Part shown: one piece after another, positions 61,901 through 64,000 of the stretch | Layout: the number at the start of each line of letters is the position of its first letter | Position numbering within the stretch: the first letter of the stretch is position 1 | Assembly: GCA_009914755.4 (NCBI GenBank) | Contig: CP086569.2 | Coordinates: 24,608,001 to 24,672,000 of the forward strand | From: the human T2T-CHM13v2.0 reference genome, Homo sapiens | DNA: 64,000 nt | Reading direction: 5' to 3' | Position numbers: made by a program

Positions 61901-64000
61901 TGACTGCTCAGTGGGGACTGTGAATAGCTCTCCAGCAGGAAGCAACAGCAGGGGTAATGGAGGAAGTGTGGGCCCACTTTGGTTTGACACTGCATATGGT
62001 CCCCATCTGGCCTCAGAGCCTTTACTCCTTGGCAAACTCAGGCCAATAAGCTCCAGCCCCCACCCTCAATGGCAGCTGGAAGAATGGCCTGAGGGAGAAG
62101 TGGGGATAGGTGGGCCACACTGACATCACCCCCAGATACCAGCCATGGCCCCAGCCAATGCATGGAGGCGAGGCATGGCACAGCAGTTGCTGCACAGGAG
62201 CCCAAGCACAAGGGCACTTAGGAGAAGGAATCTGAGCAGGGATCAATCTGGCCTGGGGGTGATTCTCCAGAAACTCCATTCCTCAGGGCTGTGACCACCA
62301 AGCCAGGTGATCAGGCCAGTGATGTTTCCCTTTCAGCCAGGTCGGGGAGCCAGACCTGGGAGGGAGACTCCTCTGGGGCCCAGGGGATGCAAGTCAGAAC
62401 TGGCAGAGGCCTCTGGCTCCAGGAACCTCCAAGAAGGAGACCTGAGTTGCTGGGAATTTCTGGGTCTGACCTCCTGCAAAGTCAAGGTCTGGGCTGGACA
62501 CAAGGTGAGGCTGTGCCTTCTGGTGCCAGGACCAAGGAAATGTGGGGATCTGGGCAGTGCTCAGAGACAGCAACATATAGCAGAACCATGAGGGTGCACC
62601 AGCACGGACCCCTTTCTGCAACCCACCCATCCCTCCCTGCAGCACCTCGCCTCCTCCAGGCAAGAATCTGAGCCTTGACCACAGCTCCCTCTCTCACACA
62701 GCTTCCTTCTTTGGTGAGAACCACCTGGAGGTGACTGTGGCCATGGCTCTGACTGACATAGACCTGCAACTGCAGTTCTCCACGTCCCAACCCGAAGCCC
62801 TCCTTCTCCTGGCAGCAGGCCCAGCTGACCACCTCCTGCTGCAGCTCTACTCTGGACACCTGCAGGTGAGTGAGGGTGAGATTCCTTGTCCAGCTTTGAG
62901 TGAACCCCAGCTGGCTGTGTGACCTTGTGTAAGTCACCTTTCTTGGGGTTTCAAGTTCTCTACTGTGGGATGGGCAGCAGCAGCTCAGAAATGGTAAATC
63001 CTTCATGAACTGGCTCTGCTCACCAGCTCCCTCCAACCATGTTTCCCACCACAAGCCCTCACTGGCCTTTGTGCTCTGACTGCACTGAACTGCTTTCAGT
63101 TCCTGGCCATCTTATGGTCACTTGCTGCCAGTCCTTTGGTCATCACACTCCTCCTGCCAGGTGTGTGCCCCACCCATTCCCTGCACCTGCCTAACTCTAG
63201 CCTCTCCTTGAAGTTTCAGTGTGGGCATCCCCTCCTCCTGGGCAAGGCCCCCTCCTGGGCCCCCATGACCCCTGTGCTTCCCGGTGGCACTGCACCAATT
63301 TCTCTGCAGCACCACTGTCTGTCCATGACAGTAACAGCACCAGTACTGCCTCAGCTTCATTTTTCCATTTCATCCTTCAAGACACCACAAGCTTTATTAT
63401 CAAGGAGTCTTGTGGCTCCTTCTTGAGTCTTCCCCCATACCATAAAGAGTTTAAGAACCCAGGGTCTTAGTGCAAATTTGGGGCAAGCTGGGTGCAGTGG
63501 CTCATGCCTATAATCCCACCACTTTGGGAGACCAAGGTGGGAAGATCACTTGAGCCTAGGAGTTCAAGACTGGCCTGAGCCACACAATGAGACTCCATAT
63601 CTATTTTAGAAAGAAAAAAAAAATTAACAAATTTGGGGCAGCCATCTCCTTCCGCACCCCAGTGGGAAGAGGACTAGGGCTTGGTCAGTCTGCTGCTGTC
63701 ATTGCTGCTCACTGCCACAAGTGTCACTGTTGAACACCTATGTGGTGCAGTCTGGCACTGATGGCTGTTGAGCTCTGTGGGTACAGTGGTGCCACATCCC
63801 TACAGAGATGCACCATACCAGGATTCCAAGATCATGGTTCTTAGTGTTCTGGTTCTGCAGTTCCCGTACTCTGCCATCACCTATTCTAGCACCTGGGAGC
63901 ACCACACCAGAGCCATTTCTTGTGTCAATGTCATGGTGACAGAACTATGTCCTTCATCTCTCCTTGAGATCTTCCTCCCCCACAGGACAGGGAGCTTTTT

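What the first reader, a model, noticed from the sequence alone, without database searches (positions are those of the whole stretch)
62600..62868. CSPG4-like pseudogene start next to a GOLGA2P-like gene, the chr15-duplicon / Y-AZFc signature
The N-terminal laminin-G region of CSPG4 is conserved almost residue-for-residue through the exon-1 donor. The start codon and signal-peptide region are degraded, consistent with the CSPG4P pseudogene family. CSPG4P and GOLGA2P copies travel together in the 15q duplicons and were jointly transposed to the Y chromosome (CSPG4P1Y and GOLGA2P2Y in AZFc). This adjacency therefore strongly constrains where the window comes from. It also explains the dense segmental-duplication structure.
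Basis: partly seen in the sequence, partly recalled or inferred. Interest (0 to 1): 0.5.

Follow-up and report, generated by a model that had tools for sequence, protein, structure and literature searches.

The report
Y-linked CSPG4 pseudogene beside GOLGA2 pseudogene
This is the already catalogued start of a broken copy of the CSPG4 proteoglycan gene lying next to a broken GOLGA2 copy, most likely in the human Y-chromosome AZFc (male-fertility) region; it is ordinary, but it pins down where the window comes from.

Summary
Window 62,701-62,865 (+) encodes 55 residues that are 52/55 identical to mature human CSPG4 (PDB 7ML7_B, E 1e-27). The next laminin-G protein, neurexin, scores E 0.004. A consensus GT donor follows at 62,866.

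One part of the reading is wrong. This is not exon 1 with a decayed start codon. It is an internal exon, by inference exon 2, preceded by a conserved AG acceptor. The 3.2 kb upstream is CSPG4 intron sequence, alignable to a macaque CSPG4-family locus and to an intact CSPG4 gene of another mammal. Homology to CSPG4 stops at 59,531-59,544, so the ATG/signal-peptide exon is missing, not degraded.

A GOLGA2-like unprocessed pseudogene lies 17.7 kb upstream on the same strand (38,944-45,010; Pfam GOLGA2L5, E 2e-71, with stops and frameshifts).

Three published Y-AZFc primer pairs match this gene or its immediate 3' flank perfectly. Two give exactly the published genomic product sizes (366 and 531 bp), and one of those pairs was shown to be male-specific and lost in AZFc deletions. 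The window is therefore most likely human Yq11.23, palindrome P1 (yellow amplicon): GOLGA2P2Y/3Y plus a Y-linked CSPG4 pseudogene (CSPG4P1Y or its palindrome twin).

This is already known, so interest is low.

The parts
59531..62699 (+). CSPG4 intron-1-derived sequence. This is the 5' part of the CSPG4-derived block, and homology to CSPG4 loci begins here.
   Evidence: blastn to macaque locus L001 (87-90% identity) and to the intact mammalian CSPG4 gene L002 (68-74%). Start of homology refined to 59,531.
59531..59544 (.). Junction. To the left is sequence that also occurs inverted at 7,232-7,720. To the right is CSPG4 intron 1.
   Evidence: The two homologies overlap by 14 bp.
62700..62701 (+). 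AG splice acceptor preceded by a polypyrimidine tract (ctccctctctcacacAG).
   Evidence: Conserved in the window, L001 and L002.
62702..62865 (+). Homologue of the CSPG4 exon encoding mature residues ASFFGEN...SGR/HLQ (start of laminin-G domain 1). It is 164 nt with a phase-1 start. Substitutions relative to human CSPG4 are P->T, T->M and R->H.
   Evidence: 52/55 identity to PDB 7ML7_B, E 1.2e-27. Human sequence confirmed.
62743..62745 (+). In-frame ATG created by the Thr->Met substitution (MALTDIDL...).
   Evidence: Read directly from the sequence. The same Met is present in paralogous ORFs P0002, P0003, P0005 and P0009.
62866..62867 (+). GT splice donor (CAG|GTGAGT).
   Evidence: The donor position is conserved in L001 and L002.
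62866..64000 (+). CSPG4 intron-2-derived sequence running to the end of the window. The next exon would lie just beyond 64,000.
   Evidence: Homology to L001 extends to 63,705 and to L002 to 63,945. The intron is about 1.25 kb in L001.
38944..45010 (+). GOLGA2-like unprocessed pseudogene, identified as GOLGA2LY (GOLGA2P2Y or GOLGA2P3Y). At least 10 exon-like blocks with in-frame stops and frameshifts.
   Evidence: tblastn with a recollected GOLGA2 sequence, used as a lead. Pfam GOLGA2L5 PF15070, E 2.1e-71, on the concatenated blocks.
42576..42941 (+). Published male-specific GOLGA2LY amplicon, 366 bp.
   Evidence: Primers from PMC4020812 match with 0 mismatches at 42,576-42,595 (+) and 42,922-42,941 (-). 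The product is exactly 366 bp.
43267..43794 (+). Span between the published GOLGA2LY1 qRT-PCR primers (exon to exon, across an Alu-containing intron).
   Evidence: Primers from PMC10267964 match with 0 mismatches. Rfam Metazoa_SRP (Alu) at 43,391-43,595.
44997..45527 (+). GOLY-SNV_1 marker (STS BV012733), 531 bp, with no HhaI site (allele A).
   Evidence: Primers from PMC3660188 match with 0 mismatches. The amplicon is exactly 531 bp and contains no GCGC. The marker is assigned to the yellow amplicons in PMC2151955.
45029..58687 (+). Downstream flank of the GOLGA2 pseudogene. It is duplicated in direct orientation at 8,305-16,397, except for 45,418-49,746, which is present only here.
   Evidence: Self-blastn, 82-95% identity.

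Best explanation
The feature is the 5' end of a Y-linked, unprocessed and 5'-truncated CSPG4 pseudogene (CSPG4P1Y or its palindrome twin). It lies 17.7 kb downstream of, and on the same strand as, the GOLGA2 pseudogene GOLGA2P2Y/3Y (GOLGA2LY). [quoted passage not shown]

How it arose, and what it can and cannot do:

- Shown: a genomic (intron-containing) copy of the CSPG4 locus was made. In this copy, homology to CSPG4 begins inside intron 1.
- Shown: the copy therefore keeps about 3.2 kb of intron 1, the exon for the mature N-terminus with both splice sites intact, and the following intron.
- Shown within the window: the copy lacks the exon carrying the ATG and signal peptide, and there is no CpG-island promoter next to the exon.
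- Inferred: because the signal peptide is missing, the locus cannot make a secreted or membrane proteoglycan. Any product would be a non-coding or aberrant transcript. The literature describes the unit as a testis-transcribed pseudogene.
- Inferred from general knowledge: the CSPG4 fragment became joined to a GOLGA2-derived duplicon on 15q. The pair moved to the Y together and was then doubled by palindrome P1.
For: - CSPG4 identity: 52/55 to PDB 7ML7_B, E 1.2e-27, against E 0.004 for neurexin.
- Internal-exon status: the AG acceptor and GT donor are conserved in the window, in macaque L001 and in L002. L002 is an intact CSPG4 gene, whose next exon is a 1,184-aa ORF with Laminin_G and Cadherin_3 domains. 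The PDB construct starts its native sequence at ASFFGEN.
- Intron homology: window 59,531-63,705 aligns to L001 at 87-90%, and 59,588-63,945 aligns to L002 at 68-74%. L001 and L002 stay homologous further upstream, where the window does not. The break is at 59,531-59,544.
- The only CpG island in the window is at 48.3-49.5 kb, not at the exon.
- GOLGA2 pseudogene: Pfam GOLGA2L5 E 2.1e-71, with in-frame stops and frame changes.
- Y placement: the GOLGA2LY primers of PMC4020812 did not amplify from female DNA or from AZFc-deleted men. They match perfectly and give exactly 366 bp.
- The GOLY-SNV_1 primers (PMC3660188; yellow-amplicon marker per PMC2151955) match perfectly and give exactly 531 bp.
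- The GOLGA2LY1 qRT-PCR primers match perfectly.
- In total, six primers (122 nt) match with no mismatch. At 5% divergence the chance of this would be about 0.002.
- A G-depleted HERV-K fragment of about 3.2 kb at 1-3,200 fits the two 3.2-kb HML-2 proviruses listed at Yq11.23a/b.
- Reviews place GOLGA2P2Y/3Y and CSPG4P1Y in P1 of AZFc, in two inverted copies.
Against: - No human reference genome could be searched, so the placement rests on published primers and not on an alignment to chrY.
- Primer specificity in a PCR may depend on one primer only. The chr15 paralogues could not be inspected to show that they mismatch.
- The published CSPG4LY primers are not in the window. This is expected if they target later exons beyond 64,000, but it leaves the CSPG4 part without a direct Y-specific marker.
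- The exon number ('exon 2') and the position of exon 1 were inferred. No signal-peptide exon was found in the 10 kb upstream in L002, so the true exon 1 was never seen.
- L001 may itself be a macaque pseudogene copy or a misassembled locus. It has an internal deletion, and its product is diverged.
Confidence: 0.88

Rival explanations
1. The window is one of the autosomal 15q24-q25 duplicon copies (a CSPG4P pseudogene next to GOLGA2P7/10/11 or similar), not the Y copy.
For: The same gene pair is said to occur in chr15 duplicons. This is general knowledge: CSPG4P11 and GOLGA2P7 are named together as schizophrenia eGenes, but no location is given. Paralogous ORFs sharing the T->M and R->H substitutions, and even the same intron read-through (P0003), exist in public assemblies, so close paralogues are real.
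Against: All six published Y-AZFc primers match with zero mismatches and give the exact product sizes. One of these pairs gave no product from female DNA and none from AZFc-deleted men. The exact window ORF is not the one recorded for the commoner paralogues.
Confidence: 0.07
2. The window comes from a non-human great-ape Y chromosome or autosome that carries the orthologous duplicon.
For: Nothing in the tools names the species. The duplicon family predates the human lineage: a macaque CSPG4-family locus is 87-90% identical.
Against: 122 nt of human-designed primers match perfectly with the exact amplicon lengths.
Confidence: 0.03
3. It is the functional CSPG4 gene, or an exon of a different laminin-G protein.
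For: The exon has an open frame and intact splice sites.
Against: There are three substitutions in 55 residues relative to human CSPG4. Homology to CSPG4 loci is lost 3.2 kb upstream, where intact loci continue. There is no CpG island or signal-peptide exon nearby. A GOLGA2 pseudogene is adjacent. Other laminin-G proteins score about 24 orders of magnitude worse.
Confidence: 0.01

Closest known systems
CSPG4P1Y / CSPG4P2Y (formerly CSPG4LY, CSPG4LYP1/2), the Y-linked CSPG4 pseudogenes in AZFc palindrome P1
   Same: CSPG4-derived and intron-containing. It lies next to GOLGA2LY on the same strand, in a window that carries Y-AZFc GOLGA2LY markers. The literature describes it as a two-copy, testis-transcribed pseudogene in P1.
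   Different: No differences were detected. Only the first about 1.3 kb of the unit (one exon) lies inside the window. Which palindrome arm it comes from is not settled. The linked GOLY-SNV_1 marker is the uncut allele A.
CSPG4 (NG2/MCSP), the functional parent gene on 15q24
   Same: The mature N-terminal exon is 52/55 identical, has the same splice sites and is flanked by homologous intron sequence.
   Different: The ATG/signal-peptide exon and the promoter are lacking. Homology stops in intron 1 at 59,531. There are three amino-acid substitutions. The genomic neighbours are different.
Autosomal CSPG4P / GOLGA2P duplicon copies on 15q (for example CSPG4P11, GOLGA2P7)
   Same: Same kind of paired, disabled gene fragments. 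The CSPG4-like exon shares derived substitutions (T->M, R->H) with other paralogues recovered from public assemblies.
   Different: The window carries perfect matches to primers reported as male-specific and AZFc-specific. Chr15 copies could not be examined directly.
GOLGA2P2Y / GOLGA2P3Y (GOLGA2LY)
   Same: GOLGA2L5-family homology, a disabled reading frame, and three published primer pairs that match exactly.
   Different: None seen.

Membership tests
CSPG4 pseudogene family (CSPG4P; Y-linked members CSPG4P1Y/2Y) | The sequence derives from CSPG4 and not from another laminin-G gene. | tested here: met
   52/55 identity to human CSPG4 (7ML7_B), E 1.2e-27. Next best is neurexin at E 0.004. The flanking introns align to CSPG4 loci.
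CSPG4 pseudogene family (CSPG4P; Y-linked members CSPG4P1Y/2Y) | It is an unprocessed (duplicated, intron-containing) copy, not a retrocopy. | tested here: met
   3.2 kb of intron 1 and 1.1 kb of intron 2 are retained, with both splice sites.
CSPG4 pseudogene family (CSPG4P; Y-linked members CSPG4P1Y/2Y) | It cannot encode full-length CSPG4. | tested here: met
   No ATG/signal-peptide exon is present. Homology to CSPG4 loci ends at 59,531-59,544, whereas macaque and another mammal continue upstream. There is no CpG island at the exon. Downstream exons lie outside the window and were not examined.
CSPG4 pseudogene family (CSPG4P; Y-linked members CSPG4P1Y/2Y) | It is located in Y-chromosome AZFc, palindrome P1. 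| tested here: inconclusive
   The support is indirect but strong. The linked GOLGA2LY gene 17.7 kb upstream carries three published Y-AZFc primer pairs with perfect matches and exact product sizes. No chrY reference could be searched. The published CSPG4LY primers fall outside the window.
GOLGA2P2Y/3Y (GOLGA2LY) | GOLGA2-family homology with a disabled reading frame. | tested here: met
   Pfam GOLGA2L5 E 2.1e-71. In-frame stops and frame changes between blocks.
GOLGA2P2Y/3Y (GOLGA2LY) | It carries the male-specific, AZFc-deletion-sensitive STS and the GOLY-SNV_1 marker. | tested here: met
   A 366-bp amplicon at 42,576-42,941 and a 531-bp amplicon at 44,997-45,527, all primers with 0 mismatches. 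Specificity is reported in PMC4020812.
Functional CSPG4 gene | A signal-peptide exon and promoter lie upstream of the mature N-terminal exon in continuous CSPG4 context, and the protein is identical to human CSPG4. | tested here: not met
   Upstream homology is lost 3.2 kb from the exon. Three substitutions in 55 residues. The neighbour is a GOLGA2 pseudogene.
Chromosome 15q CSPG4P/GOLGA2P duplicon copy | It maps to 15q24-q25. | not testable with these tools
   No human genome collection is available. Perfect matches to male-specific primers argue against this.

The most novel reading that the evidence does not exclude
The Thr->Met substitution creates an in-frame ATG at 62,743 inside the retained exon. 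A Y-linked transcript could therefore encode a signal-peptide-less, cytosolic laminin-G fragment in testis. In that case the unit would be a protein-coding, male-specific gene and not a pure pseudogene. The window contains only this one exon, so the length of any such ORF could not be assessed.
Probability: 0.03. Interest if true: 0.35.

Novelty: already known. Interest (0 to 1): 0.1.

Why it matters
The main value is as a locator. The pairing places the whole 64-kb window in the AZFc palindrome P1 of the human Y. This region undergoes recurrent deletions (b2/b4, b2/b3, gr/gr) that are a leading genetic cause of spermatogenic failure. Other findings from this window should be read in that context: ampliconic, multi-copy DNA rich in pseudogenes. 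The correction also matters for annotation. The copy is truncated in intron 1 and does not have a decayed start, which explains why it cannot make the proteoglycan. Nothing here is new biology.

Tried and rejected
- An exact look-up of the window's 63-aa ORF across the exon found no record.
- Protein searches returned only short ORF fragments from host-contaminated assemblies and a few primate or bird partial proteins. They never returned full-length human CSPG4, so no human CSPG4 genomic locus could be fetched.
- tblastn with a recollected signal peptide at permissive settings gave only noise apart from the ASFFGEN part. It was rejected as uninformative.
- A crude scan for a signal-peptide exon or a CpG island in the 10 kb upstream of the exon in the intact mammalian gene L002 found none. 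The true exon 1 was therefore never seen, and 'exon 2' remains an inference.
- I first treated macaque L001 as the true orthologue. It has an internal deletion in the large exon and a diverged product, so it may be a pseudogene copy or a misassembly. I use it only as a second CSPG4-family locus.
- The sY1206 forward primer, recalled from memory, has no match.
- The CSPG4LY primers of PMC4020812 are not in the window. The single 3-mismatch hit at 54,881-54,900 is taken as a chance match.
- The exact position of the HhaI variant in GOLY-SNV_1 could not be fixed. Two one-mismatch GCGC sites both predict 240/291 bp against the published 242/289 bp.

Full report
**1. The observation**

Window 62,701-62,865 on the + strand reads through 55 codons without a stop: ASFFGENHLEVTVAMALTDIDLQLQFSTSQPEALLLLAAGPADHLLLQLYSGHLQ. 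Searched against every PDB chain, it hits human chondroitin sulfate proteoglycan 4 (7ML7_B) at E 1.2e-27, with 52 of 55 residues identical over the full length. The next best laminin-G protein, neurexin-1-alpha, scores E 0.004. A longer recollected human CSPG4 N-terminus proved identical to the PDB chain over residues 30-196, so the comparison sequence is sound. Directly after the last codon comes CAG|GTGAGT, a consensus donor. The similarity is real, is far beyond chance, and is specific to CSPG4.

**2. This is not exon 1, and the start is not degraded**

- The 100 bases upstream of the coding block (62,600-62,700) translate to nothing resembling a signal peptide. They end in a polypyrimidine tract plus AG at 62,700-62,701.
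- I fetched two other CSPG4 loci. L001 is a macaque chromosome-7 locus annotated from this exon onward. L002 is a 31-kb contig from an unidentified non-primate mammal. In L002 the exon is followed by an intact 1,184-codon exon with Laminin_G and Cadherin_3 domains, so it is a working CSPG4 gene.
- All three sequences share the same acceptor (TCACACAG|C-TCCTTCTT) and the same donor position.
- The native part of the PDB expression construct also begins exactly at ASFFGEN.
- The block is therefore an internal exon that begins at the mature N-terminus, with a phase-1 start at 62,702. The signal peptide must be encoded by a separate upstream exon.
- Calling it 'exon 2' is an inference. I never saw exon 1, and it is not within the 10 kb upstream in L002, which also has no CpG island there.

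**3. Extent of the CSPG4-derived block**

- Window 59,531-63,705 aligns to L001 at 87-90% identity. Window 59,588-63,945 aligns to L002 at 68-74%.
- The window therefore holds about 3.2 kb of intron 1, the exon, and 1.1 kb of the next intron.
- The next exon would begin just past 64,000, since that intron is about 1.25 kb in L001.
- L001 and L002 remain homologous to each other further upstream, where the window is not.
- The switch is sharp, at 59,531-59,544. To the left of it, the window matches (86.9% identity, inverted) its own segment at about 7.2-7.5 kb.
- In this copy the CSPG4 homology thus starts inside intron 1. The ATG/signal-peptide exon and the promoter are absent, not decayed.
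- The only CpG island in the window is at 48.3-49.5 kb, which is 13 kb away.
- One substitution (Thr->Met) creates an in-frame ATG at 62,743. The same Met is seen in paralogous ORFs from public assemblies.

**4. The neighbour**

- A recollected GOLGA2 sequence, used only as a lead, picks out at least ten exon-like blocks on the + strand from 38,944 to 45,010. They are colinear with GOLGA2 and contain in-frame stops and frame changes.
- The concatenated blocks hit Pfam GOLGA2L5 at E 2.1e-71.
- This is an unprocessed GOLGA2-family pseudogene, 17.7 kb upstream of the CSPG4 exon and in the same orientation.

**5. Where the window comes from**

No human genome could be searched, so I used published primers as sequence tags.

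- PMC4020812 gives a GOLGA2LY pair with a 366-bp product. It amplified from males, not from females, and was lost in AZFc-deleted men. Both primers match the window with no mismatch at 42,576-42,595 (+) and 42,922-42,941 (-), which gives exactly 366 bp.
- PMC3660188 gives the GOLY-SNV_1 primers (STS BV012733, 531 bp). They match perfectly at 44,997-45,016 (+) and 45,506-45,527 (-), which gives exactly 531 bp. PMC2151955 assigns this marker to the yellow amplicons. The amplicon has no HhaI site, so the window carries the uncut allele A.
- PMC10267964 gives GOLGA2LY1 qRT-PCR primers. Both match perfectly at 43,267-43,286 and 43,775-43,794.
- Six primers, 122 nt in all, match without a mismatch and with correct spacing. 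This is not expected of a paralogue a few percent diverged: at 5% divergence the chance is about 0.002.
- Reviews place GOLGA2P2Y/3Y and CSPG4P1Y as two inverted copies in palindrome P1 of AZFc.
- A further fit comes from window 1-3,200. It is a HERV-K pol-env fragment (Pfam HERV-K_env_2, E 6e-17; pol motifs in frame 2). Two HML-2 proviruses of about 3.2 kb are catalogued at Yq11.23a/b.

I conclude, with about 0.88 confidence, that the window is human Yq11.23, P1 yellow amplicon.

**6. Mechanism**

- Shown: this is a genomic copy of CSPG4, cut in intron 1, beside a disabled genomic copy of GOLGA2.
- Inferred from general knowledge, not tested here: the two fragments were joined in the 15q duplicons, moved together to the Y, and were doubled by the P1 palindrome.
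- Functionally, without an ATG/signal-peptide exon the locus cannot yield a secreted or membrane proteoglycan. The literature treats it as a testis-transcribed pseudogene of unknown role.

**7. Internal duplication in the window**

- 8,305-8,696 plus 8,693-16,397 repeats 45,029-45,417 plus 49,747-58,687 in direct orientation at 82-95% identity.
- 45,418-49,746, which includes the CpG island, is present only in the second copy.
- An inverted 0.5-kb repeat links 7,232-7,720 with 59,055-59,544.
The remaining long self-matches are L1 3' ends.

**8. Verdict**

The feature is already annotated and described, so interest is low.

Noticed in passing
window 1-3,200 (+), possibly continuing upstream of the window: A HERV-K (HML-2-like) pol-env fragment with extreme G depletion on the + strand (G about 5%, A about 46%, GC skew -0.54). 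Its pol translation shows D->N, G->K/R and W->stop throughout, which is the pattern expected of APOBEC3-type G->A hypermutation. Pfam still detects HERV-K_env_2 (E 6e-17). Its size fits the 3.2-kb HML-2 proviruses listed at Yq11.23a/b. The one paper read here names 3q21.2 and 21q21.1 as the LTR5Hs proviruses shown to be APOBEC3G-hypermutated and says nothing on this point about the Yq11.23 pair.
   Followed up: partly
window 8,305-16,397 versus 45,029-45,417 plus 49,747-58,687: A direct repeat of about 8 kb at 82-95% identity. The first copy starts at the point corresponding to the end of the GOLGA2 pseudogene but has no GOLGA2 exons before it. The second copy carries an extra 4.3 kb (45,418-49,746).
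   Followed up: partly
window 48,300-49,500: The only CpG island in the window (GC 0.65-0.73, CpG observed/expected 0.6-0.77). It lies in the 4.3-kb segment that is absent from the upstream repeat copy, between the two pseudogenes. No protein similarity was recognised, and it could be a promoter of an unannotated or non-coding unit.
   Followed up: no
window 7,232-7,720 (-) versus 59,055-59,544 (+): An inverted repeat of 0.5 kb at 85% identity. Its right-hand copy ends exactly at the junction with CSPG4 intron 1, so the same breakpoint-flanking sequence occurs twice in the window in opposite orientations.
   Followed up: partly
window 26,500-31,100 (-), 32,460-33,350 (-), 37,300-38,350 (-): L1 elements. 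One is a long copy with ORF2-like open stretches, and two further copies are 3' ends at 89-93% mutual identity. The last one ends about 600 bp before the first GOLGA2-like block.
   Followed up: no
window 43,391-43,595 (+): An Rfam Metazoa_SRP match (89.8 bits). It is most simply an Alu element inside an intron of the GOLGA2 pseudogene, between the two qRT-PCR primer sites.
   Followed up: no
window 62,869-62,871 region compared with L001 10,12x: Relative to the macaque locus, the window lacks 28 bp of the intron just after the donor. Public ORF fragments fall into two human-like paralogue types, one reading ...LQVSEGEIPCPALSEPQLAV (P0003) like the window and one reading ...LQVSDVPLGLGRDSLSSFE (P0002, P0009) like the macaque intron, so this indel may mark subfamilies of CSPG4 pseudogenes.
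   Followed up: no
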